A DNA stretch of 64,000 bases from assembly GCF_963675165.1 (NCBI RefSeq), contig NC_087378.1, forward strand, positions 334,562-398,561, written 5' to 3'. The notes below the pieces were generated by a model. It was not told where the DNA came from, searched no databases, and saw only the letters and a list, made by a program, of their open reading frames with translations. Source of the DNA: Halichondria panicea (taxonomy: Eukaryota). Shown here one piece after another: positions 42 to 46,620 of the stretch; the first letter of the stretch is position 1, and the number at the start of each line of letters is the position of its first letter. The position numbers and the translations under genes are program-made.

Positions 42-2804
42 TTAATGTTTGGGCATGTATTGATGTACAAGTTCATGTAGTCTTTTGTTCTCATCACTCA
101 ATCTGTCCACTTTGTCATTGAGCACTGCAAACTGGTGGGCCAGCCCCTCCTGTAATGAAGGAATAGTTAGTCAGTCAGATACAAACAGGGGAGGGGGTAT
201 GGTGGGTGGGCATGGTGGGTGGGCACACACACACAGGAGGGGGGGGTATGGTAGGTGGGCACACACACACACAGGAGGGGGGGTATGGTAGGTGGGCACA
301 CACATACACAGGAGGGGGGGGTATGGTGGGTGGGCACACACATACACAGGAGGGGGGGTATGGTGGGTGGGCACACACATACAGGAGGGGGGGGTATGGT
401 AGGTGGGCACACACACACACAGGAGGGGGGGTATGGTGGGTGGGCACACACATACAGGAGGGGGGGGTATGGTAGGTGGGCACACACATACACAGGAGGG
501 GGGGTATGGTAGGTGGGCACACACATACAGGAGGGGGGGGTATGGTGGGTGGGCACACACATACAGGAGGGGGGGGTATGGTAGGTGGGCACACACACAC
601 ACAGGAGGGGGGGTATGGTAGGTGGGCACACACATACACAGGAGGGGGGGGTATGGTGGGTGGGCACACACATACACAGGAGGGGGGGTATGGTGGGTGG
701 GCACACACATACACAGGAGGGGGGGTATGGTGGGTGGGCACACACATACACAGGAGGGGGGGGTATGGTGGGTGGGCACACACATACACAGGAGGGGGGG
801 GTATGGTAGGTGGGCACACACACACACAGGAGGGGGGGTATGGTAGGTGGGCACACACATACACAGGAGGGGGGGGTATGGTGGGTGGGCACACACATAC
901 ACAGGAGGGGGGGTATGGTGGGTGGGCACACACATACACACAGGAGGGGGGGGTGGTGGTTAAGGCTGACCTGGAGAGTGAGGAACTGTCTGATCATGTC
1001 CACGGTCAGTCCTCTAGTGTCCCTGTGCACAGAGTACCTGCAGTGTGTGTGTGGAGAGGATTTGTTGGTTGATGCAATATTATATCCTCAAAGTTAGCTA
1101 TCAAAATAGACCCATTCCCATGTTTTTTCTAAAATTTTAGCCTGAAAGCAGTCATTGATTTAAGCACACCATTCAATAGAGCTAATATGAAAGAGCTAAA
1201 AACTGCACTATTACATATGTAATATGCACACACATAAGCAGTGGTCATGGGAGTACAGTAATGTCCTCTCACCACAGCTCCTCAGTGGAGTCCTTGACAA
1301 CCCTCTCCAGGTATTGGGTCTGTACCCCACTGGCCATAGAGGGGGGTGGGGCAAGAGGGGAATCCCCTCTCTCCTCCATGGTAACCTGTGCAGTACAGTC
1401 ATCACTATAGTATACAATATTGATGACAGTACCAGAACTCACAGTCTCAGATGGTACCAGTAATGGTGTCTCTAGGTCAGCACGACTGACATCAGTCACT
1501 GTGTGTGTGTGTGTGTGGGTGTGCGTAGTGTGTGTGTGTAGTTGGTGGGTATGGGGTAGGGATAAGGATGTACTCACCTGTTGCCCTGGTAACTGGCTCC
1601 AATGCTTGTGATACTAACACAGAGTGTTTTAAACGTGGCTCAGGAGGTGGTTCCTGAGGGGTCATGTGACCTGACAACAAGGGACTGCTTGTATCAATCA
1701 GTAATGGGGACTGTCCGATTAATAAATCACCATGACGACCACTGTTTAGGGGGGAGAATATTCCAGCCCCTGAATTACCACTAGTCGTTGAATGAGCACT
1801 TTTGTTTGATTGCAATAGAGGCGTTGCTATTGGCAACCTGGGGAAAGGGGCCTGTACGACACTAGCTGGTGTAGAGGTGGTCAGGGTGTTGTTGGTTGCG
1901 GGGGGCTGACTGATGGTGGGGGGTCTCTGTGTGGGGGGTACTGATGCTGTGATCTTGCCAGCTGATGAGAGGGGCGTGGTCATACTCTTAGAGTCAAGTG
2001 GACTGAAGATACCTGGAGCCGATAACATTGATTGAGATAATGCTGTACACAACAGCTACTGCCATATATTGTATCAACGACTTGTATCTATATACACAAT
2101 ATTAGTAACTCACTCGACATATTCCCACCATCACTGTTGGCTGGTGTAACCATGGCAGAGGCTGTGGGGGGTCCTCTCTTACCACCCCCCTTCATGAGAC
2201 TATAGGGTGTGGCCACCTCCAGTGGAGCCCCTCCCACTCCTCGCTGCTGGGTGACAAACGGTGTCATTGTCTCAGGGAGAAAGGACACATCTTGTCGTGG
2301 CTCTTGAGATGACCTCTGACCCCTGGGTGGGCTCTTGTTGCTCATGCTGGCATCTACAGTGTAGGGGCAGGAACACACAATAGTGATTATCCTGGTGAAG
2401 GGGTGCTTACCTTTAGAGTGTGATCCTCTATCTCTCGAGGAGCTCCTCTTAGCAAGCATCTACAGAACAAACAATAAACAAAAATCTACCAACACACACA
2501 CACTCTTCAGACAAGGTAATGGTTCACACACACACACACACACATTGTGGGCACCTTGAGTGGAGTCTGTGGTGCTATGCGGGTGACTGCCGTCTGGTGA
2601 GCCTCAGTGACTGACTTGGGAGTCTTGAGAGAGCGCAGCTCATACAGGTAGAGCTTGCCTACAGGGGGACACATACACACACTGTACATAGGCTGAACAC
2701 ACACACACACACATACCATCAGTTCCTCCTGCTAGTAAGGTGGAGCCATCCCTCAGAATACTGACAGAGGACAGAGGGGTAGGAGCAGCTATCGTCGCCA
2801 CCAT

Positions 2805-2837
<33 letters not shown>

Positions 2838-3128
2838 TGGGTGGGTATACACAGTGTAGTGTGTGGAGATGTGACTCACTTTCTGGTCTGCAGGTCGTAG
2901 CAACGAATGCACGAGTCCAGTCCAACACTGACCATGAGGATCTTGTTGCTGGGAGTGAAGCTCAGGTCCGTAGCAACATCTACACGGGGACAGAGGTCAA
3001 TGCAAAGCAAAATAGCTCACTTTAGAAAGTCTCTACAATAACAACTTTTGATTAGATGAAATTGGGATCTAAAACACACTCTTTGTGAGGACTACAAAAT
3101 AAAATGTACCAAAATTATTTGTTAAGAC

Positions 3129-3162
<34 letters not shown>

Positions 3163-4310
3163 CTGTTCCCCGCCCCCATACACTACCTGAGTGTTTCGTT
3201 GTGAATGTTGTGAGCTTCCTCTGTGACTCTATGCTCCACAGAGAGACCTCCCCTCCCTCACACACACAGCCGAGGTGAGACTGCTCCATCAGGGACACAC
3301 TCAATCTAGACACTGCCTGTAAGGAGTGGGCACCATCTTAGCACACTGGCTGTTGGTGAGTCTGATGGACCCACTCACCTGAGGAGAGGGTTGGTCTGGG
3401 GTCAGCTGGACACTCTTACCAACACCGGAGAGGGAGTGGAGGAATATGTGTCCATCCTGTCCCCCGGACACCACCAGTTGATCATTGCTTGTAGCCACCA
3501 CACTGTTGACAGCTCCACTATGACCCTGTGTGTGTGTGAGGGAGGAGTGGGTGTGAGGGAGTGTGTGTGAGGGAGTGTGTGTGAGGGGGTGTGTGTGAGG
3601 GAGGAGTGGGTGTGAGGGAGTGTGTGTGAGGGAGTGTGTGTGAGGGAGTGGGTGTGAGGGAGTGGGTGTGAGGGAGTGGGTGAAGTAATGAAGAGATTAC
3701 AAAGTAGATTACTGGAAATGTTTTGATGATATTCTTGTGTTTGAGGTCCCATACAAAGACAGAGGAGTTGCCACATCCACTGGCGAGGTAGCGGCTGTTG
3801 CCTAGGAGACAGCCACAAGTGAACGCACCATCCTCCTGTCAGTGTGTGTGTGTGTGTGTGAGTGTGTGTGATGTATGCGCTGGTTACCACCCACCTTGTG
3901 TACAAGGTAGCTCCAGGTAATGATGTCATCTCTAAAGTCACACACAGCCACTCTGTCCCCACACTTGGGCACCACTGCCAGCTTAGAGTCTGGCCTTAGT
4001 TAAGAGGAACAACCACACACAGTCACTAGGGTAGCTACTACAGTATGTAGGGGAGGGTACTGGAGCACTAGCTACTAGAGTATGTAGGGGAGGGTGCTGG
4101 AGTACTAGCTATTACAGTATGTAGGGGAGGGTGCTGGAGTACTAGCTACTAGAGTATGGTGATGGGGGGGATACTGTTGGAGCTCCATGAGAGGGAGGAA
4201 ATATGATAGTCAGAGTCTGGGAAGGGCTCAGCAGCTCTCTTCCGAGTCAGCGTCTTCTCCTCCCAGAATACCACACTGTTCCGAGCACCAGTCACTAACT
4301 CTGTCATTGC
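42..4310 (-). CDS. NEDD1: NEDD1-like WD40-repeat protein (gamma-tubulin complex recruitment factor); multi-exon gene span
   Basis: Minus-strand exons translate to WD40 repeats, for example VATSNDQLVVSGGQDGHIFLHSL and QEDGAFTCGCLLGNSRYLASGCGNSSVFVWDL. Two segments align to human NEDD1: MVATIAAPTPLSSVSILRDGSTLLAGGTDG and KLYLYELRSLKTPKSVTEAHQTAVTRIAPQ versus VKTLVADTPLTAVDFMPDGATLAIGSSRG and KIYQYDLRMLKSPVKTISAHKTSVQCIAFQ. An S/T-rich middle region follows. The last exon (42-149, acceptor ttacag) encodes EGLAHQFAVLNDKVDRLSDENKRLHELVHQYMPKH*, matching the NEDD1 C-terminal coiled coil (LREENKRLRAHF). The start is assigned near MTELVTGARNSVVFWEEK at about 4310. Confidence 0.6.
175..955. repeat. 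Minisatellite: about 21 tandem copies of a 36-38 bp G-rich unit GGAGGGGGGGTATGGTGGGTGGGCACACACATACACA, in the last intron of the NEDD1-like gene
   Basis: Directly visible periodicity. Every reading frame gives long artefactual ORFs (PPTIPPLLCVCV..., GGMVGGHTHT...). G-runs are on the + strand, which is the non-template strand relative to the minus-strand gene. Confidence 0.95.
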
Positions 4311-4558
4311 ACAGGCTTTGTCTTTTGGGTTTCTCACTACACCACATATTGGGTACGGGTCACCTTGCACATGAAAGATGGGCGTGGCTCATTTTTTGAT
4401 TTTGGGGTTTGAGAATTTGAGCATGCGCAGTATCAAAGTATCAGCCTCGATTTCAAGCCGCCGTGTCTTTGAGTACTAACTACCCTCCAACTCCACACAA
4501 TTTATAACAAACAAAGCAGAGTGAAGGAGCTAACGATTAACAGTGAAGAGTTAGAGAG

Positions 4559-6806
4559 ATGGAGAACAAATTATACTTCATAGTGGTCATTGTGTGTCTA
4601 TTGCAACTGTCCACCTCTGTCATCTTACAGGATACCCAAGGTGAGCCCATCACTCAGTACTGTTGCACAGGCTAGAGCTAAGACAGTCTCCTGTGTGTGC
4701 ATGCACAAGACAATCCATGCAAGGTGTTAGACTGATCACATAATAGTATTGTTAGTCCGCTCAGTACTCAGTAAGTGTTTAGCTGCATGCAAACGTGCAT
4801 AGTTAGCTTTATTATTGCATACTGTATAGAGGGTATATTTCGAGGGTATAAATGTTTGGTTATCGCGGATTAAGCATATACTGCGAACATTTATAACCCT
4901 GAATTTAATATCGCATGCATGCATGCTGCAAAAAGGCTGCTATTCTCCGAAAAATTTAATCCACGAAAACCTTTCTAAAGGCATTTCCTCTACCCTCGAA
5001 ATATATATACCCAACTATATTATATACGGTAGTTAGCTTTAATTGTACATTGGTGTAAAGGAACGCTGGTCTCTGGAATTATCACCTTTTGTGTGTTAAT
5101 CAGCACAAGACACAAGATCAATGCTCCTGTGTTGGGCCAATACACTGACCCCCAGGCACAACACACCACCGCCTTGGGCATCTTCTAATCTCGTTTGACT
5201 ACAACTGTTTTGCATACTAGACCACAAAAGTGTGCATTTTGCACCACAAATCTTGTTATGCAGTCATTGTTTGAGGCCATATATGCCATGGTTTTTTGTG
5301 TATACCCCAAACAACCCTTAAATTGGAATTGGCCTAGCTATTAATCATATATTTCTCTGAGCAGCAGCTGAGGCGACCACAGTGGAGTGTCAGGAGTCAG
5401 AGTACCGAGTAATGGAGGGTCAGAGTGTGCAAGTGTGCCTCCAGTTCACAGGACCACTCTCCATTGATGAAGATGAAGAGAACCTTTTTGTGGTAGCTAA
5501 TGTCTTCACTCAACCTATCACTGCCGGTGAGCTTAATTATTACACTATAATTATACATGGAAATTTGCAATTATTGTACATGTCAATATCTCCTAGCTTT
5601 CTTTTGATAATTATGATTATGATTATTGCACTCTCTCTCTCTGTAGATGTATCTGACTTTGGGGCTACCAATTTGAGCTCCATTATGACTTTCAGTATGA
5701 CCTTTTCCCCTAATACTCGAGGGTTGTTTTCGTTGCCTTGTGTTGAGGTGGTGAGCCGTATGGGCGATGTTCGTGAGGGTGTGAGGGTTGTGATAGCACA
5801 GCAAAAACCTCACGAATCACTCCGCAACTGTACAGTGTATATTAGGGACAAGGGAGAGACCACCACGTCAGGTAAGCTAGTACACTCGTCTCTGTTGTTA
5901 CGTAGAGTTAATTTTGAAGCATTTGAAATAGCATTCCAACGGAAGCTGATAATTCTCCATCACCTAATTTGACAATACCTTCACTGGTTTCAATAATCAA
6001 CAAACTATTGCTGTATCCGGCCTGAACCCTGTACCCTATGTTGTATAAATAAATTTGTTCATTTCCTCTCCTCCTCTGACAGGTTCTACTGAAGTGTCAT
6101 CCACTGGGGGAATCCCCCAATCACAGGGCACAGTCGGTGCTATTGCTGGAGGTGTGGTGGGTACTCTCATTGGATTGGTCGGAATCACTGTCGCCATAGT
6201 AACTCTCGTAGTGATGTTCTGTTGCTGTCACCTAAAGGACAAGAATTTAGAGTAAGTTAATAAATTAATTTCTAATCACGGTAATAATAATTATTTGCTA
6301 TTCTTCCGCAGCTCTGACAAGTGTAGGCCTAAACCAGTGGTATACAAGTAAGTTCATAGTCTAGTCTTCTCAGCTTTAGATGATGAGTGGTCATTTCTAG
6401 CAGGAGGAGTGATTCCAGTGGTTCAGAGGTCGGTGTGGTCACACCCACTAGAAGGGGAGAGCTTGTCGCTGTACCAATGGACAACCCAGTCTACAATGAA
6501 GAAATGCAAGGATATGTGGCAGAAGGTATGCTGTTGATAAAGGTGACCTTAATGGAAAATTATTCACCAAATTTCTTTCTTCCCACAGACCCTCCCCCCT
6601 CCAGTCCAATCTATAGCAATGTATCTCACGAGACACTCCCGGAGGACTATGAGATACCCCTCCCATTGACCAATCAGAATTCAGTCGACCAGACTGCCCT
6701 CCCCTATGAGGTCCCACTGACATCACGTAGCAACTCTAATGACTCAGCAGGAGCCTCGGGAGTTGATCACATGTACCACACACTCGAGACACCACGGAAG
6801 ATATGA
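4559..6806 (+). CDS. Novel type I single-pass transmembrane protein: signal peptide, ~165 aa 4-Cys ectodomain, cytoplasmic tail with NPVY, YSNV, DYEIPL, LPYEVPL and HMYHTL motifs; 7 exons
   Basis: Exon 1 (4559-4640) encodes MENKLYFIVVIVCLLQLSTSVILQDTQ, a hydrophobic signal peptide, with a gtgagc donor. Exon 4 encodes a TM helix, GAIAGGVVGTLIGLVGITVAIVTLVVMFCCC. Exons are phase-consistent with GT-AG introns, and the stop is at 6806. No recognisable family match from memory. Confidence 0.55.
4820..5035. mobile_element. MITE-like non-autonomous DNA transposon (~215 bp) with terminal inverted repeats, flanked by the direct repeat TAGTTAGCTTTA
   Basis: Left terminus ACTGTATAGAGGGTATATTTCGAGGGTA and right terminus TACCCTCGAAATATATATACCC are reverse complements. 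The 12-bp direct repeat TAGTTAGCTTTA occurs at 4800-4811 and 5030-5041, consistent with a target-site duplication. It lies in intron 1 of the TM-protein gene. The termini resemble the elements at 17625-17815 and 30781-30988. Confidence 0.6.
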
Positions 6807-15045: not shown

Positions 15046-15475
15046 GTATATTCCTCGATTAAACGCCGCGATTTCAATGGGGATTGTATAGGCCTCGAAT
15101 AATTGTGTGATATAAACTTATGCGATATGGTGGGCACTCGTATTAATAGCATTAGTTTGTATCACACAAAAATTTCTAGCACTAGGGTACTCTTGGTTAG
15201 TACAGATTCACAAGCGCTGACCTGTGCGACTCCTGAGGCCATATCTTGGTCTGCTGACTCAGCAGATGTGGGATGAGAGCAGTGGGGAAGGAAGGTGTGG
15301 ATAGGAAGTGAGATACCAGGTTGGCAAGACAACGTCTGAGGAGGAGGGGGGTAATACATTATCAGTAGAACACACACACACAAGCTAGTGACACTGGTTA
15401 CACACACAAGCTAGTGACACTGGTTACACAAACACATATCATGATGATACATCAGACACGGACATGCACACCACA

Positions 15476-15568
<93 letters not shown>

Positions 15569-15594
15569 ACACCACACATGCACACCACACACAC

Positions 15595-15671
<77 letters not shown>

Positions 15672-16263
15672 ACACACACACACACCACACACACACCACA
15701 CACACCACACACACACACACACGGACAGTTGTAGTAGCTGACCTTCCAACCTCATCCGTGGGGTCAAGCACGGTGAGCATGGAGCACAGCTGTTGAGCCA
15801 CAAACTGACTCTTGAGAGACGCGTCCGTCTCTTCCTGCACCGTCAGCACTTCCTCCACATACCTGCAGGGAGGACAGGTGAGGTATACATAACTGTACAT
15901 ATGAAAATAATAGGGGAAATAGATAATGCTAAATTTGGGCAGCAATAACGGAAAAGGAGATAATAATACAATAATAATAATCGTGAGCCACATTACTCTA
16001 GGCTTTCAGAGACTGATGGGCCATATCATTATCATCATCATACAGCCATGGCTGTTCAATGATGCTACCGTTGCTATACAGCCATGGCTGTTCAATGATG
16101 CTACCGTTGCTATACAGCCAATGACTGTTCAATGATGCTACCGTTGCTATACTATACAGCCAATGGCTGTTCAATGATGCTACCGTTGCTATACAGCCAA
16201 TGGCTGTTCAATGATGCTACCGTTGGTATAAGACCACACTCCACTGAGCACCACACACACACA

Positions 16264-33523: not shown

Positions 33524-35075
33524 CAAGCAATGGTTCCACTGTGTGCACCCACTGTACCTAGCAGTGAAGGTTTTGAGGGTAGCTGGGTCAGCCACGTCAT
33601 GAGTGAAGCAAGCACTTAGTGAGAGGGGCTCCAGCTTCCACACGGAGAGTCGCTGGTCCACTGAGGTGGTGGCTACTAGACTGGGACCAAACCAACCAAT
33701 ACCTGTGTGTGTGTGTGGGGGGGGGGGGTTCAGAGTAAAGTAACAGGAAAGCTTGCATAAGAAAGTAACGTGTACAGACTAGGAATGTCCTCACCTGTGA
33801 TGCTAGAAGAGTGGGCGGTGCTGTGTGTGCTTTGAGTGTGGAGGGACATGGAGAGATGTGGAGTGGTGGTTAGGGTGAGGTGGGTCACTGTGAGGGCATT
33901 GTCATCTCCCACTGTCACCACAGTCAGGTGGCCATCTACAGCAATTGATACAAAATTATTATAGTCAGTACAACACCACATCAATAAATCCCAGCATCCC
34001 TGACATACAACAAAGAAGGTACTAGAGTAGGTAACCCTGGAGTAGGTATAGAGCACTAGAGTAGGTATAGAGGGGCTACTAGTAGGTATGGTGGTAGTGC
34101 TCACCTTGGACTGAAGTGATGAGGTCGTTGACTCCAGATTGATGGGCCTTGAACGCAATAACAGACTCCACTGGTATACAACCTCCCATCTCCTCCACTG
34201 ACATACGGCCTTCTGTCTCGAGGCTGTGTAGACTCCACACACACACAACACCGTCTGTAGCACTGGAGAGCAGTAGTGGGGGGTGGGAGGACAGTGGGTG
34301 GAGCTTGGTACACAGGATGCAATGGTCATGGTGATGTAACGAGGGTAGAGGTTGGAAGGTGTGGTTGCCCTCATCGAATATAAACTGCCTGTAGTGCAAT
34401 ACACATCAGGTAAATAAATATGGCAATGCTACCAGAACAGAATAATAGTCTACCTTATAATTCCATCTGAGCAGCCAGCTGCCAGGTAATGATAGGGGGG
34501 AGTGGACAGAGGTAGCGCAGCCAGACTCATCACTCTACACTCAGGCTGACTGTCCTTTGACCTCTGTTTTCGTGAGCCGTGCTTGTTGTGTAAGAACACC
34601 TCCCCACAAAGTTCAACTCTCTCCTTCAGCTCACTAGGGCCACAACCTGCACACACAATAAGCTCTGATATTAGTCTAAAAGGGTCACCACAAGTATGAG
34701 CAAGATGCTTACCGGATGGTATGTTCCAAGCCTTCAAGCTTGCCCTGGCCCCACCAGAGAAGAGCAGCTGGCCGTGGTGTCCTTGTGAAGAGGTTAGAGC
34801 CTTGACAGAGGAGAGGTGGCCAGTGAGGGTAGCTAGAAGTGAGGGACGTGTGTGTGGGGAGGCTGCTACCAGGGCAATGGTACAGTCCTCACTACCAACA
34901 GCCAACAACAGCTCACCTGCAGAGCAAAGAGCATTGTTACTACATTGAGTGTCATACATACATACCAGTGGTGGAGTTAGCATTTAGAATCTCTAGTGAG
35001 AGTGCCTCTCTTCCAACAAAACCAGGCTGTGTGTGTGTGTGTGGGTGTGAGGGTGTGTGTGTGTGTGTGGATGTG

Positions 35076-35151
<76 letters not shown>

Positions 35152-38092
35152 TGAGGGTGTGTGTGTCAATGGTCAAGTCCATACCTGAATGATGGGATTG
35201 GTGAAATAAGACTCCAAACTAGAGGTCCTGAAGCAGAGGGTAGATTGTTTGACATACACAGCATTCATTGTCCTAGTCTTCAAGATCTGTGAACCATTAT
35301 CACACACACTCAACATGTGATAATACTGTATACCTGCTGTATAGAGCTGATGTCATATGACCTATGTCCCCCACCGCAGTTGATCTTGACTATAGGCTTG
35401 TTCTGGGCAGTGCTGTACAACACAAGGTCTGTCTGTAAGTGTGTGTGTGTGTGTGGGGGGGGGGTACTACAGTGTGAGGTGTGGAATCCCACCACCCACC
35501 CACTCACTCACTCACCGTATGGAACCCCACTACTAACATGTCCTCTTCTTGGAAAATCAGATCCTCAATCCAATCCATTCCCTTCACAGGCTGGAGGGCA
35601 ATATTGCTACACATTAGACACACCACACACACACACACATGTACAGTACAGCAGGATAGCGCTGTTAGGGCTGACCTTAAAGTCAATGAGTTCTTTAAGA
35701 TCTCCATCTTTGCTCAGACTGTACTTTCTGCAGCGTCCATTGCGGCCAGCACTGTACACAAAGTCTCCACTCATCTTGAGACAGGTGACACCATTGGGAC
35801 CGTGCACTCGATAAGAGGCTGTTGGTTTGGTGGAGGGTGAGGGTTGGTCAGCAGTGGTTAGACACACCCTGTACACATGTAGTGAGCCTTTCCTGTCCCC
35901 TAGTAGCAGAGTGTCCCTTGTTGAGTCGTGTAGGGCCACAGATACCCAGCGATGTTTAGATGGGGGGAGCTCGAGAGTAGCAAGGGGAGTGGCCATCAGA
36001 CCTTGAGGTAACATCACACACCTCCAGCAGATCTGGGGGGGGGGGGGGGGTCAAGTGTTAAAGGCCATTTTTTTGAGGCCGTTTTTTTACAAAAGTGTGG
36101 GTTATAATTATTATTATTATTATATAGGTGGGGGAAAAGTGAAAATTCAAAAATGTTGAGCTGGGCATACCATCTGATAGAGATGTTAATCATAATGCCA
36201 GACATTGAACCAACAAAACAAAAGTGATGGCTGTTTTTGAGAAAAAAAAAGCGTGGGTCTGCCTACACTGCATTCTCACCACTTGTCCGGCTGGTCCACA
36301 AGAGAGCAACATCTCATCTCCCAACCAACTGAGGGAGAACACCTTCCCAGTGTGAGCACTCCAACACAACTCAGCCGTCACATCTCCTGTGGTCATGTAA
36401 TGAGTGTCAAGTACACAAAGGATGGGTAAGATTGGCTCAGTATGGTGTAGCAACAGATACCTCACCTTGTTTGTCCAATGCCAGCAGCTTTATGCTTCCC
36501 TCCAGACTGCCCACAGCCAGTAGGGGAGAGTGGAGGGCTAACAGAGAGTAACTAGAGAACAGCTGATCCCTTGCCACCTGCCTCCAGACAATAGGGGACA
36601 CATCCACACAAGCAGCGTACAGAACACTATATATGACAATTAGTTCACTAACTGCATAAAAATACAATAATATACTGACCCGTGGTCTGTGTGGCAGAGA
36701 GCCGTGTTGCCATGGAGACAGACAGAACGAGGCAGGTCCTCTGTGGGTAAGTGAGTGTCCCATTCCATCTCTTGTTCTCCCTCTAAACTGAACACACGTA
36801 CACCACAGTCCCCACCACCAGTTGCCTGTGCATGAGGAGGGGAATGGACATATTCCCTAGGGGCTGCTGTTACACACTCACCACTCTCTTGTTCTCTGAG
36901 TCCACGGCCATGCTCCACATACTCCGCCCCCTATGACCCCCCACAGTCCTCACAGCCACACACCTACTCCACACACGACAAGTGGCGTCCTCTCCAATGC
37001 TCACCACGTTGTCCCCTGGTAGTAGTCGGGCGTCCCAGACCCTGGCAGTGTGTCCGTACAACACTTGCACTCCAGCTATTACCTCAACACTAGAGCACAA
37101 CAGAGGCACAAAGTAAGTGCTTGAACTTGTAACTAATAGCTTTTAATTAGCGGAAAATGAAGATTTGGGCCCTAAAACCATCGCTAATCCACATTATTTG
37201 ATAGGCCTTTCAAGGAGCTCCTAAATGAATCCTTGATTTGAAATTGGAAATAGCTCAGCTCAGAAAAAACACCATAGATAGGGTCCATGTACAGTACCTT
37301 TGATGGAGGGTCCAGTCTTGTGGGAGTGTCCACACTCTAACAGTTCTATCATCAGACACAGAGACAAGGGAGCGGCCATCATCAGAGAGGCGCACACACA
37401 ATATCACACCCTGTCAGATCACATGACTTATCAGTTACATATCACATGACCCACCTCATGTCCGGAGAGTGAGAGTCGTACTGGTACCCTGGTAGAGGGG
37501 TCAAAGTTCAGCTCCTCCGATACTGAAAGGTCAACGGTCCACAACAAGATGTGATTGAAGACTGTGCCAGAGATGGCAATGAGAGAGTTGCTACCAGTCG
37601 TTACTAGTCGTGCTGAATAGCTAGGAAATAGCTAAAAAATACATAATTATATGAGAAAAATCTAAGACAAAACATTACTCAGGAAATAGCTAAAGAAATG
37701 CATCATTATCATATGTGAAATCTAAGACAACACATTACTGTATGGTTGGATACAGAATACAGTTGGTCTCGCTGTGATAGTTGACAATATTCACGATGCC
37801 AGCTGCCACACGATACACAGTCACTACGTTGTGTGCAGTGATATAGGAGAGGGTGTAGTTTGCTGGGTCAGCAAAGCTCAGCCAACAGACGTCCAAGAGC
37901 CAATCAGAAGCCTCGATTACAGCAGATACAGGGGTCAACCTGGAGGTCACCAGTTAATGGTTACTGTGAGTGACATAGCTCACATGACTGACCTGAACTG
38001 AGGTGAGCTGTGCAGTTGAATCAGTCGAATGCTCTTCTGCCCGAACACTAGCACTAGTGGTACATCACTCTCATCAATACTGTCGTCAGCTG

Positions 38093-38151
<59 letters not shown>

Positions 38152-38502
38152 GTGTGTGTGTGTATACGTGTGGTGTGTGTGTGTGTATGTGTGTGGTGTG
38201 TGTACTGACACTAGCAACACACCTGGTCGTATGCCATGCACTCGTTTGAAGGGCAGTACCTCCTCCTGGGCTAACAGTGCTCCCTCATCACAGGAGAGCA
38301 GCTTCAGATAGGGACCTTCCCCTGCAACCAGTGCATGCAGTGTGTGCAGGGACAAGTGAGTAACTCACTCAATAATGGATGGCTTATAATCATTACCTGC
38401 TAACAGGAGCTCTAACTGTCCGATGGTAATGAACTCCAACGCGGTGACTGGAAGACAGCTCTGCTTGGCCGTGATCTTGCATGTCTTGTCAACAGTCTCC
38501 AT
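33524..38502 (-). CDS. WDR6: WD repeat-containing protein 6 (WDR6; tRNA 2'-O-methyltransferase FTSJ1/Trm7 partner) orthologue; multi-exon gene span
   Basis: Exon 1 METVDKTCKITAKQSCLPVTALEFITIGQLELLLAG joins in frame (donor GTAATG, acceptor TTGCAG, codon split G|GG) to EGPYLKLLSCDEGALLAQEEV... This reproduces the human WDR6 N-terminus ATSELILLPVTGLECVGDRLLAGEGPDVLVYSL. The C-terminal exon LVATTSVDQRLSVWKLEPL...FTHDVADPATLKTF...* matches human IMVSASIDQRLTFWRLGHGEP...FHVPDVADMD...; the stop is at 33521-33523. Many WD40-like internal exons are present. Confidence 0.8.
35028..35167. repeat. Compound (GT)n microsatellite, ~140 bp, in a WDR6 intron
   Basis: Directly visible. Confidence 0.95.
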
Positions 38503-39756
38503 ACAGTGCAACAACCAAAGAGAGTAGATTTTTTTTTATATTATTTTTTTTCACATTTTGTGGCATATCTTCTGAAGTAAAAGTGATATGATCTATTTGA
38601 GTGCAGGTACTGAAAGTTCAATTATTGGCGCTTCCATTGGACCACCACCTGTTACATCATATGACATCATCACTATGAAATGGCTGTCTGAAGATGTGTA
38701 CCTCCGAAAATATGTTAGGAATAGAAGTAGCTTATTTGTTTGAGTTAAGATCTGAAATTTATTGTGTATGTACCTGACTATATTGCTCATCTTTTGAGCT
38801 TCAACGGAAGTCTGGGCTGCTAGTAAGTTCTGAGAAATACTGAATTTTGTTGTTTTTTGGTGGCAAATATGTTAGGAATACAACTTTTGATTTTATGCTA
38901 GTTAAGGTCTGATTTTTGAGGAGCATGTACTACAATAGCATAGAATTCATCTGTACTAACTTACAGGAGCTAGACAAGTCTCATCTTTGCTAGAGCGGCC
39001 CTTCTTGTCAAAAATGGTGATTTTGCTCCGTTTTGCTACTTTTGCTGACGTATGCAATGATATTCATTGATTTGTGACATCACAAATCATCTTGTTGTTA
39101 TTTGCTACATCCAAAGGTCATGTGATGTCTACCTGCAAATACACAGTTGGTGTTGGTCATTCTGTGTCACAGGGGCGTGGTAATTGAGCTTACTACGTAG
39201 CCAAATCACCCCAAAAGTCATAAAAAGCACTGTTTTTGACAAGATGGGCCGCTCTAGCAAAGGAGAGGCTAGCCTAACTCCTGTAAGTTAGTACAGATGA
39301 AAAGTACACTATTGTAGTACATGCTGCTCAAAAATCAGACCTTAACTAATATAAAATCGAAAGTTGTATTCCTAACATATTTGCCACCAAAAAACAACAA
39401 AATGCAGTATTTCTCAGAACTTACTAGTAGCCCAGACTTCCGTTGAAGCTCAAAAGATGAGCAATATACTCAGGTACATGCACAACAAATTTCAGATCTT
39501 AACTCAAACAAATAAGCTACTTCTATTCCTAACATATTTTCCGAAGTACACATCTTCAGACAGCCATTTTATACTGATGATGTCATGTGATGTAACAGGT
39601 GGTGGTCCAATGGAAGCGCCAATAGTTGAACTTTCAGTACCTGCACTCAAATAGATCATATCATTTTTACTTTAGAAGATATGCCACAAAATGTAAAAAA
39701 TGTGTACCAAAAAAAAAAATCTACTCTCTTTGGTTGTTGCACTGTAGGCCATGTGG
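38503..39756. repeat. Large near-perfect inverted repeat (foldback structure): arms ~38503-39035 and ~39215-39756, central spacer ~180 bp; it occupies the divergent WDR6/DHX15 intergenic region
   Basis: The right arm is the reverse complement of the left arm. For example, ACAGTGCAACAACCAAAGAGAGTAGATTTTTTTTT...CATTTTGTGGCATATCTTCTGAAGTAAAAGTGATATGATCTATTTGAGTGCAGGTACTGAAAG (38503-38610) matches CTTTCAGTACCTGCACTCAAATAGATCATATCATTTTTACTTTAGAAGATATGCCACAAAATG...AAAAAAAAATCTACTCTCTTTGGTTGTTGCACTGT (39645-39756). The mirrored 65-aa ORFs (38593..38790 minus and 39457..39654 plus, MSNI[VL]RY[IM]HNKFQILTQTNKLLLFLTYF...) are a consequence of the repeat. The arms are over 90 percent identical with a few indels. 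Confidence 0.9.
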
Positions 39757-39942
39757 ATGTCATTTATAAACTTGATGACCCTTTACTTTTTCATTCATTA
39801 TCTAATCTCATAAATCACAAGCAAAAATACGACCATTACCTACCACAAGGTACAGGATCATCACAAAGAAAAGTAACAAACTTGCTCCACGTTTCTGTCT
39901 CTGTGGATGAACGTCGAATCACGAAGAGAAGCAGCAATGGCG

Positions 39943-46620
<6,678 letters not shown>

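What the first reader, a model, noticed from the sequence alone, without database searches (positions are those of the whole stretch)
38503..39756. 1.25 kb near-perfect inverted repeat spanning the divergent WDR6/DHX15 promoter and abutting the WDR6 start codon
Two ~530 bp arms over 90 percent identical in inverted orientation are separated by a ~180 bp spacer. The left arm ends 1 nt upstream of the WDR6 ATG (minus strand, 38500-38502), so the WDR6 5' leader is arm sequence. The right arm ends ~185 bp upstream of the DHX15 ATG. The right arm copies the WDR6 leader plus an ATG context (...TTGCACTGTAGGCCATGTGG versus ...TTGCACTGTATGGAG) pointing toward DHX15. Both divergent genes are therefore preceded by the same sequence in their own orientation. 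This is either a foldback-type transposon inserted in a bidirectional promoter or a palindromic duplication of the promoter. Either way it could form a large cruciform or hairpin at an essential locus. The right-arm ATG opens an upstream ORF (39681-40088), overlapping the DHX15 ATG out of frame.
Basis: seen in the sequence. Interest (0 to 1): 0.7.

Follow-up and report, generated by a model that had tools for sequence, protein, structure and literature searches.

The report
Sponge DNA transposon inserted at WDR6 start
The 1.24 kb "palindrome" between the WDR6-like and DHX15 genes is an ordinary non-coding cut-and-paste transposon of the Tc1/mariner type with unusually long inverted ends; it jumped recently into a TA at the WDR6 start codon of this breadcrumb sponge (Halichondria panicea), and other individuals of the species still lack it.

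Summary
The inverted repeat is real. Its arms are 38504-39024 and 39223-39744, 92.4% complementary, around a 198-bp spacer. It is not a promoter duplication or an assembly artefact.

It is a 1241-bp non-autonomous DNA transposon, `CAGTGCAACAACC…GGTTGTTGCACTG`, flanked by a duplicated TA.

- **Empty site:** five other assemblies of the same species (flanks about 99.8% identical) read `…gtctccaTAggccatg…` with a single TA and no element.
- **Dispersed family:** an arm-derived ORF matches 39 ORF clusters on other contigs. The exact 24-nt terminus occurs on 48 further metagenome contigs. 50 of 51 termini abut TA next to unrelated flanks.
- **Full second copy:** a copy at another locus (L006) has the same arm-spacer-arm layout.
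- **Arm asymmetry:** arms cluster by side, not by copy, so the left/right difference was inherited from the source copy.
- **Conserved ends:** only the outer 25 nt are invariant across subfamilies, as expected for a transposase-binding end.

The element has no ORF over 65 aa and no transposase, and no autonomous partner was found.

The insertion separates the WDR6-like coding sequence from its roughly 190-bp shared promoter region and splits a possible upstream start (MTSTWP|METVDK). The effect on expression is inferred, not shown.

Verdict: a new member of a known kind, of low to moderate interest.

The parts
38502..38503 (.). Left copy of the TA target-site duplication. On the minus strand its A is the A of the WDR6-like ATG (38502-38500).
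   Evidence: Empty alleles L009-L013 have a single TA here. 50 of 51 family termini abut TA.
38504..38528 (+). Left terminal 25-nt block CAGTGCAACAACCAAAGAGAGTAGA, the presumed transposase-binding end.
   Evidence: It is the only 25-column block that is fully invariant (25/25) among copies found independently of the terminus pattern. The 24-mer is exact on 48 other contigs.
38504..39024 (+). Left long terminal inverted repeat (arm), 521 bp. It contains a degenerate two-copy internal direct repeat spaced 157 bp apart.
   Evidence: It is 94.9% identical to the left arm of the L006 copy but 92.5% to its own right arm.
39025..39222 (.). Unique central spacer, 198 bp, part of the element.
   Evidence: The spacer is also present in the L006, L007 and L005 copies.
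39223..39744 (-). Right long terminal inverted repeat (arm), 522 bp.
   Evidence: It is 97.2% identical to the right arm of the L006 copy.
39720..39744 (-). Right terminal 25-nt block, the reverse complement of the left terminus.
39745..39746 (.). Right copy of the TA target-site duplication.
38397..38502 (-). WDR6-like exon 1 (METVDKTCKITAKQSCLPVTALEFITIGQLELLLA-G), followed by a roughly 75-nt intron (38322-38396) and exon 2 (…GEGPYLKLL…).
   Evidence: Read directly from the sequence. It resembles the human WDR6 N-terminus (…LLPVTGLE…LLAGEGP…, recalled from memory). Collinear tblastn hits lie further downstream.
39747..39764 (-). Six codons (ATG ACA TCC ACA TGG CCT, with the final T of CCT supplied by the TA) that are in frame with, and contiguous to, METVDK in the unoccupied allele (MTSTWP|METVDK). 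In this allele they are separated from the gene by the element and read into it as a 35-aa ORF.
   Evidence: Translation of empty alleles L009 and L011. ORF 39656..39763(-) MTSTWPTVQQPKRV….
39937..40004 (+). DHX15 exon 1 ([22 protein letters not shown]-). Its ATG lies 192 nt to the right of the element. The exon end is putative.
   Evidence: DHX15 identity of a downstream exon is confirmed against PDB.

Best explanation
The feature is one copy of a dispersed family of non-autonomous, cut-and-paste DNA transposons of the Tc1/mariner (IS630-Tc1-mariner) type in the demosponge Halichondria panicea.

**Structure.** The element is 1241 bp. It has two ~521-bp terminal inverted repeats around a 198-bp unique core, ends in 5'-CAGTGCAACAACC…, and encodes no protein.

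**How it got here.**
- Inferred: a transposase supplied in trans recognised the invariant outer ~25 nt of each end and cut the element out of a donor site.
- Shown: it integrated at a TA dinucleotide, duplicating the TA.
- The target TA happens to be the T of the last codon of a short possible N-terminal extension plus the A of the METVDK start codon of the WDR6-like gene. This lies inside the ~190-bp region shared with the divergently transcribed DHX15.

**Age.** The insertion is recent and polymorphic. Other individuals of the same species carry the intact, unoccupied site. The 7.6% difference between the arms was inherited from the source copy and does not date the insertion.

**Consequence (inferred, not shown).** In this allele the WDR6-like coding sequence is pushed 1.24 kb away from its promoter. 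Any transcript from the native start site would carry a hairpin-forming, AUG-rich leader, or would translate a 35-aa peptide ending in the element. The allele is therefore probably hypomorphic or null for WDR6 unless the element's end provides a start site. DHX15 keeps its proximal 190 bp.
For: 1. **Empty site.** Contigs L009-L013 come from five other assemblies. Their flanks are 99.8% identical to the window and they jump from window 39745 straight to 38503 with a 2-nt overlap. They read gtctcca-TA-ggccatg where the window has TA-[1241 bp]-TA.
2. **Dispersed family.** A chance 65-aa ORF from the arm hits 39 ORF clusters (52-97% identity) on other contigs, none with a Pfam domain. The exact 24-nt terminus is on 48 further metagenome contigs.
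3. **Target.** 50 of 51 independent termini are preceded by TA, with no other flank conservation.
4. **Same architecture elsewhere.** L006 2882-6248 is a full copy (arm, spacer, arm) with TA at both ends, split by two nested insertions.
5. **Arm clustering.** Arms cluster by side: window R vs L006 R 97.2%, L vs L 94.9%, and L vs R within a copy about 92%.
6. **Terminal conservation.** The outer 25 nt are invariant, while the rest of the arm diverges to 73-85% between subfamilies. This holds in copies found without using the terminus as a probe.
7. **No coding capacity.** There is no ORF over 65 aa and no tblastn match to Tc1 or mariner transposases in the window.
8. **Transposases exist in the host.** Tc1-type transposases occur in the same sponge metagenome: the L034 ORF has DDE_3 and HTH_Tnp_Tc3_2.
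9. **Family definition.** The TA target and duplication defines the IS630/Tc1/mariner group (PMC7325037).
10. **Organism.** A window ORF is 100% identical to a contig of JAHZIM01, which is H. panicea sample P_S1 from the Netherlands.
Against: - No autonomous partner with the same ends was found. The only Tc1-type transposase seen (L034) lies outside the adjacent family terminus and has no similar end. Assignment to Tc1/mariner therefore rests on the TA duplication and the end sequence alone.
- The filled allele was seen only in the window and in L008. L008 is identical over 18,468 nt, so it is probably the same individual assembled by another program, and population frequency is unknown.
- No expression data were available, so the effect on WDR6 and DHX15 is inference.
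- 'WDR6' orthology rests on a recalled human sequence.
Confidence: 0.92

Rival explanations
1. Local palindromic duplication of the bidirectional WDR6/DHX15 promoter. The arms would be copies of native promoter or leader sequence generated in situ.
For: The element sits exactly between two divergent genes, so each gene is preceded by the same sequence in its own orientation.
Against: The unoccupied allele contains none of the arm or spacer sequence. The same arms and spacer occur at many unrelated loci with unrelated flanks. The boundaries are marked by a 2-bp duplication.
Confidence: 0.01
2. Assembly artefact, such as a chimeric foldback read or a mis-joined palindrome.
For: Palindromes are a known artefact class. 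The filled allele was seen only in the window and in a contig that is probably from the same reads.
Against: The arms differ at 39 positions plus one gap, whereas artefactual foldbacks are near-identical. Each arm matches the corresponding arm of an independent copy better than its own partner. The arm-spacer-arm layout recurs in L006. The junctions show a perfect TA duplication relative to the empty alleles. A second assembler gives the same sequence.
Confidence: 0.01
3. A mobile element of another superfamily: a true Foldback (FB) element, or a hAT, PIF/Harbinger or piggyBac derivative.
For: Most of the element is inverted repeat, as in Foldback elements. Each arm has an internal two-copy direct repeat (D2). 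No transposase partner was identified, so the enzyme class has not been demonstrated.
Against: The duplication is exactly 2 bp, TA, and TA is invariant at 50 of 51 ends. From general knowledge, FB makes about 9 bp, hAT 8 bp, PIF 3 bp and piggyBac TTAA. The arms are not arrays of tandem repeats (TRF finds none). The ends start CAGTG, as in Tc1-like elements (general knowledge).
Confidence: 0.04
4. The insertion is old and the 'empty' alleles are precise excisions, rather than the ancestral state.
For: Cut-and-paste elements do excise. The arms are 7.6% diverged, which could naively suggest age.
Against: All five empty alleles are identical and have no footprint, whereas Tc1/mariner excision usually leaves a few element bases (general knowledge). 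Arm divergence is shared with another copy and so predates the insertion. The empty allele restores an uninterrupted in-frame ATG…ATG reading frame.
Confidence: 0.03

Closest known systems
Tc7 of Caenorhabditis elegans, a non-autonomous element mobilised by Tc1 transposase (recalled from the literature, not retrieved here)
   Same: It has two long inverted repeats (hundreds of bp) around a short unique core, no coding capacity and TA target duplication. Only the outermost tens of bases need to match the autonomous element. Here, only the outer 25 nt are invariant across subfamilies.
   Different: There is no sequence relationship. The arms here are longer (521 vs ~345 bp). The autonomous partner is unknown, so 'hitch-hiking' on a specific transposase is inferred, not shown. 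The host is a sponge.
Stowaway-like and mariner-derived MITEs, e.g. MADE1/Hsmar1 derivatives (general knowledge)
   Same: They are non-coding, have a TA duplication and terminal inverted repeats, occur as tens or more of dispersed copies, and often sit close to genes.
   Different: At 1241 bp this element is well above the usual MITE size. It is not an obvious internal deletion derivative of a known transposase-bearing element.
Tc3 and other long-TIR Tc1-family elements such as IR/DR elements like Sleeping Beauty (general knowledge)
   Same: They have CAGT-type ends, a TA target and long terminal inverted repeats.
   Different: Those are autonomous and have a second internal transposase-binding repeat in each arm. 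No internal copy of the 24-nt end was found here, even with up to 3 mismatches, and there is no transposase.
Drosophila Foldback (FB) elements (general knowledge)
   Same: The element is dominated by long inverted arms and is predicted to snap back into a very stable hairpin (-550 kcal/mol as ssDNA).
   Different: FB arms are built of tandem subrepeats and FB makes a longer duplication (about 9 bp). Here the duplication is TA and the arms are essentially unique sequence.

Membership tests
Tc1/mariner (IS630-Tc1-mariner) superfamily | Integration at TA with a 2-bp TA target-site duplication (PMC7325037) | tested here: met
   Filled versus empty alleles show TA-[element]-TA against a single TA. 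50 of 51 independent termini abut TA.
Tc1/mariner (IS630-Tc1-mariner) superfamily | Terminal inverted repeats that serve as transposase recognition sites | tested here: met
   The terminal 36 nt are perfectly inverted (I4). The outer 25 nt are invariant across diverged subfamilies. Binding itself was not tested.
Tc1/mariner (IS630-Tc1-mariner) superfamily | Encodes, or is mobilised by, a DD(E/D) transposase with paired-type HTH DNA-binding domains | tested here: inconclusive
   The element has no ORF over 65 aa and its arm ORFs carry no Pfam domain. No transposase lies within any variant sharing the ends. A Tc1-type transposase exists in the same metagenome (L034) but is not linked to these ends.
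Tc1/mariner (IS630-Tc1-mariner) superfamily | Mobility as a discrete DNA unit (cut-and-paste) | tested here: met
   There is a precise presence/absence polymorphism within one species, and copies sit at many loci. Excision was not observed.
MITE (Stowaway-like) | Miniature size (typically under ~800 bp) | tested here: not met
   The element is 1241 bp.
MITE (Stowaway-like) | Non-coding, TA duplication, multiple dispersed copies | tested here: met
   At least ~50 ends were seen. The true copy number in the genome was not measured.
Foldback (FB) elements | Arms composed of tandem subrepeats | tested here: not met
   TRF finds no array within 38504-39744. There is only one degenerate two-copy repeat, 69 nt at 74% identity and spaced 157 bp apart.
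Foldback (FB) elements | Target duplication of about 9 bp (general knowledge) | tested here: not met
   The duplication is exactly 2 bp.
IR/DR-type Tc1-like elements | A second, internal copy of the transposase-binding repeat within each long arm | tested here: not met
   The 24-nt terminus, allowing up to 3 mismatches, occurs only at the two ends.

The most novel reading that the evidence does not exclude
The reference individual carries a young, possibly rare, natural promoter-trap or knock-down allele of the WDR6-like gene (a tRNA-methylation cofactor). The element splits the original start region (MTSTWP|METVDK), and either silences the gene through a 520-bp hairpin leader that could feed RNAi, or supplies a new start site from its own end. 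Separately, element copies in two Halichondria lineages are more alike (96.7%) than their host DNA (about 91%). That could mean the family moved between lineages recently, by horizontal transfer or introgression, and is still active in sponges.
Probability: 0.15. Interest if true: 0.45.

Novelty: new member of a known kind. Interest (0 to 1): 0.25.

Why it matters
- **Annotation.** The reference sequence at this locus is an insertion allele. Gene models, 5' UTRs and promoter analyses for the WDR6-like gene and DHX15 drawn from it will not represent the species. The true intergenic region is only about 190 bp.
- **Transposon activity in sponges.** A base-precise presence/absence polymorphism shows that a TA-targeting DNA transposon family has been mobile very recently in a sponge. 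Transposon activity in this phylum is little documented, and no description of this family was found.
- **Dating.** Divergence between the two arms of a long-inverted-repeat element cannot be used to date an insertion. Here the asymmetry is inherited from the source copy.
- **What it is not.** Nothing here points to a new mechanism.

Tried and rejected
- **Concatenated junction query.** I searched the protein collection with junction and flank ORFs joined together, hoping to find empty-site contigs in related species. 8000 candidates were collected and none scored.
- **Exact look-up of junction ORFs.** Nine of ten junction-spanning or flanking window ORFs were absent. The tenth, the 62-aa ORF at 39861-40049(-), gave the decisive contigs.
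- **Autonomous partner, by tblastn.** Only L034 itself matched, and it is not linked to a family end.
- **Autonomous partner, by shared ends.** I checked the interiors of contigs that share only the ends (L014, L018, L033, L043, L050, L058). They hold host genes (Muskelin in L043), an ORF with no Pfam hit (L050), or nothing recognisable, so these are truncated ends or solo arms.
- **Autonomous partner, by fuzzy terminus search.** No terminus-like sequence lies around the L034 transposase.
- **Confirming WDR6 against solved structures.** Only generic WD40 hits came back.
- **Provenance of VSKX/VSKW, ERZ23495531 and SRR32026487.** Nothing was found.
- **Literature on sponge Tc1/mariner MITEs or an H. 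panicea repeat annotation.** Nothing specific was found.
- **Bacterial promoter/terminator scanner.** Not used, because it does not apply to an animal genome.

Full report
**1.

The repeat finder and a gapped BLAST self-alignment both recover the inverted repeat. The arms are 38502-39024 and 39223-39746, 92.4% identical over 524 columns with one gap.

Reading the ends base by base gives the anatomy:

| Part | Coordinates | Length |
|---|---|---|
| Left TA | 38502-38503 | 2 bp |
| Left arm | 38504-39024 | 521 bp |
| Spacer | 39025-39222 | 198 bp |
| Right arm | 39223-39744 | 522 bp |
| Right TA | 39745-39746 | 2 bp |

- The outer 36 nt are perfectly complementary (I4).
- The 24-nt end CAGTGCAACAACCAAAGAGAGTAG occurs only at the two termini. 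Shuffles of the window give 0.00 expected matches.
- No other large inverted repeat exists in the window, and there is no other copy of the arms.
- As single-stranded DNA the element is predicted to fold into one long hairpin of -550 kcal/mol.

**2. Surroundings and organism**

- **WDR6-like gene.** The exon beginning at the minus-strand ATG 38502-38500 (METVDKTCKITAKQSCLPVTALEF…LLAG|EGPYLKLL) resembles the human N-terminus.
- **DHX15.** Its exons run on the plus strand from ATG 39937 to about 46596. One exon gives DHX15/Prp43 as best matches among solved structures at E=3e-38, ahead of DHX8 and DHX16.
- **Limit on the WDR6 name.** A single WDR6-like exon ORF gives only generic WD40 matches, so that name is less secure.
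- **Species.** A 177-aa exon ORF is 100% identical to a contig of GCA_022599525 (JAHZIM01). A 90%-identical version occurs in SRR15711137. JAHZIM is the metagenome of Halichondria panicea specimen P_S1 from the Netherlands (PMC9666466). SRR15711137 and GCA_020423245 are H. panicea data from another study (PMC8994243). The window is therefore from the European breadcrumb sponge, and the second data set is a related lineage that is about 91% identical in this gene region.

**3. It is a dispersed repeat, not a local duplication**

The protein collection stores ORF calls from raw contigs, so I used a chance 65-aa ORF inside the arm as a probe.

- It matched 39 ORF clusters at 52-97% identity on different contigs, none with a Pfam domain.
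- **L006** (a 456-kb contig) carries a full copy at 2882-6248. It has left arm, spacer and right arm in the same order, interrupted by two nested insertions, and TA at both ends.
- **L005, L007, L062 and L063** carry partial copies or solo arms. Wherever the terminus is present (L007, L062, L063) it abuts TA; the L005 copy lacks the terminal ~50 nt.
- An exact-match scan of metagenome contigs for the 24-nt end found 48 more contigs. Most end about 100-250 nt inside the element, as expected for a repeat that breaks short-read assemblies.
- Over all fetched loci, 50 of 51 termini are immediately preceded by TA, and positions -3 to -12 show no conservation. The single exception (L043) is a 30-nt end fragment next to a host Muskelin gene.

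**4. The empty site**

Of ten junction or flank ORFs looked up by exact sequence, one was in the collection: 62 aa, window 39861-40049 on the minus strand, 115 nt from the right end. It sits on ten contigs.

- **L008** is identical to the window over 18,468 nt with no mismatches and contains the element. It is probably the same individual assembled by different software.
- **L009-L013**, from five other assemblies, match the flanks at about 99.8%. They pass directly from window 39745 to 38503 with a 2-nt overlap.
- Base by base, those five read `…caacagtctcca TA ggccatgtggatg…`, where the window has `…tctcca TA [CAGTG…CACTG] TA ggccatg…`.

This is a precise 1241-bp insertion with a 2-bp TA duplication, polymorphic within the species. 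There is no excision footprint, so the empty alleles are most simply the ancestral state.

**5. Arm asymmetry is inherited**

If the insertion is young, why do the arms differ by 7.6%? I aligned arms from several copies.

| Comparison | Identity |
|---|---|
| Window right arm vs L006 right arm | 97.2% |
| Window left arm vs L006 left arm | 94.9% |
| Left vs right arm, within either copy | about 92% |

At the 39 sites where the window's arms differ, the L006 right arm carries the 'right' state at 33. The family therefore propagates with arms that had already diverged, and arm divergence says nothing about the age of this insertion. It also argues strongly against an assembly artefact.

Several subfamilies exist: window/L006/L005, L007/L063, L019/L050 and L032/L046, at 78-88% identity to each other.

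**6. What is conserved**

I used only copies found without the terminus as a probe: the window's two arms, L006's two arms, L007 and L063.

- The first 25 columns are invariant (25/25). L062, not part of that alignment, carries the same exact 24-nt end.
- The next 25 columns have 8 invariant positions, and the rest of the arm has 12-22 per 25.
- This is the pattern expected if only the outer ~25 nt are needed for recognition by a transposase.
- No internal second copy of the end exists, even with up to 3 mismatches, so this is not an IR/DR-type arm.

**7. Classification and mechanism**

- TA target duplication is the shared hallmark of the IS630/Tc1/mariner group (PMC7325037). Ends starting CAGTG are typical of Tc1-like elements (general knowledge).
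- The element has no ORF over 65 aa and no similarity to Tc1 or mariner transposases, so it must be mobilised in trans.
- I did not find the partner. Contigs sharing only the terminal 30-70 nt are truncated ends next to host sequence.
- The one Tc1-type transposase encountered (L034, with DDE_3 and HTH_Tnp_Tc3_2) lies about 2 kb outside the neighbouring terminus and has no related end.
- So the TA duplication, the inverted ends, mobility and the lack of coding capacity are shown. The enzyme class is inferred.
- The closest analogue I know is C. elegans Tc7 (long inverted arms, unique core, only the ends shared with Tc1), recalled rather than retrieved.
- It is too long to be called a MITE. It fails two Foldback criteria: the arms are not tandem subrepeats and the duplication is not about 9 bp.

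**8. Likely consequence at this locus (inference)**

- In the empty allele the two start codons are only about 190 bp apart, so the promoters must overlap.
- There the WDR6-like frame reads TAA-ATG ACA TCC ACA TGG CCT ATG GAG…, giving MTSTWPMETVDK. The target TA is the T of CCT plus the A of the second ATG.
- In the filled allele the duplicated TA preserves the METVDK ATG, but it is now preceded by transposon sequence. The upstream ATG instead opens a 35-aa ORF that ends in the element (MTSTWPTVQQPKRV…).
- A transcript from the original start site would therefore carry a 1.24-kb leader that can fold into a ~520-bp duplex. Alternatively, transcription would have to start inside the element.
- Either way WDR6 expression from this allele is probably reduced. 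No expression data were available to test this.
- DHX15 keeps its proximal 190 bp. It matters only if transcription starts in the right arm, and it crosses the putative exon 1 donor near 40004.

**9. Verdict**

This is an undescribed family of a well-known kind, caught as a recent polymorphic insertion at a gene start.

Its main practical value is as a caution for annotation of this locus, and as evidence of recent DNA-transposon activity in a sponge. Interest is low to moderate.

Noticed in passing
window 204-959: A G-rich minisatellite with a 37/75-nt unit (GGGGGGGTATGGTGGGTGGGCACACACACACACAGGAG), about 20 copies at 92% matches. It explains the GC of 0.58 and GC skew of 0.43 in the first kilobase.
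   Followed up: no
window 46006-46407: A 48-nt tandem repeat, 8 copies, in a DHX15 intron. The unit begins with the last ~19 nt of the preceding exon (GACATCAAGCCAGAGTGG, encoding DIKPEW), so the exon's 3' end has been tandemly copied into the intron without the GTGAGT donor.
   Followed up: partly
L006 3562-4795 and 5244-6156: Two nested insertions interrupt the L006 copy of the family. The first is a 1.23-kb element with 34-nt inverted ends (TAGCATAGATAGTAGAGGGAAGGGATTGGAAACA) sitting in the spacer. The second is a 0.9-kb insertion in the right arm.
   Followed up: partly
L034 430-1391: A Tc1-type transposase ORF (DDE_3, HTH_32, HTH_Tnp_Tc3_2; 26-36% identical to Sleeping Beauty) in a sponge-metagenome contig. 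It lies about 2 kb from a terminus of the family but outside it. There is one frame break, and no related ends were found.
   Followed up: partly
L005 4751-5238 versus window 38553-39039; L002-L004 versus window 33706-35067: The element arm from the second 'H. panicea' lineage (GCA_020423245) is 96.7% identical to the window's left arm, while the host WDR6 region from the same project's reads is only about 91% identical. On this single copy the transposon is more similar between lineages than the host DNA. This could reflect recent transfer, introgression or sampling.
   Followed up: no
L005, L007, L019, L050, L062, L063: Many family members are solo arms or half elements rather than full arm-spacer-arm copies. 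That would fit frequent deletion of one arm in a long palindrome.
   Followed up: no
L008 (ENA ERZ26868619 ctg13089): The contig carrying the filled allele is only 19.6 kb and is labelled 28.6x. Other contigs of the same assembly that carry family copies are 0.4-2.2 Mb and labelled 94-168x. It may be a haplotig or a minor genotype, which would hint that the insertion is heterozygous or from a minority component.
   Followed up: no
window 38397-38502 (exon 1, codon 30): The empty alleles L009 and L011 (the two translated) encode Ser (GQSELLL) where the window's filled allele encodes Leu (GQLELLL). This coding SNP could tag the two alleles in expression studies.
   Followed up: no
window 38095-38203, 35028-35166, 15467-15722, 42480-42590: Long (GT)n/(CA)n microsatellites lie in the introns of the WDR6-like gene and DHX15 and elsewhere. 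The array at 38095-38203 is where the short-read contigs of the empty allele stop.
   Followed up: no
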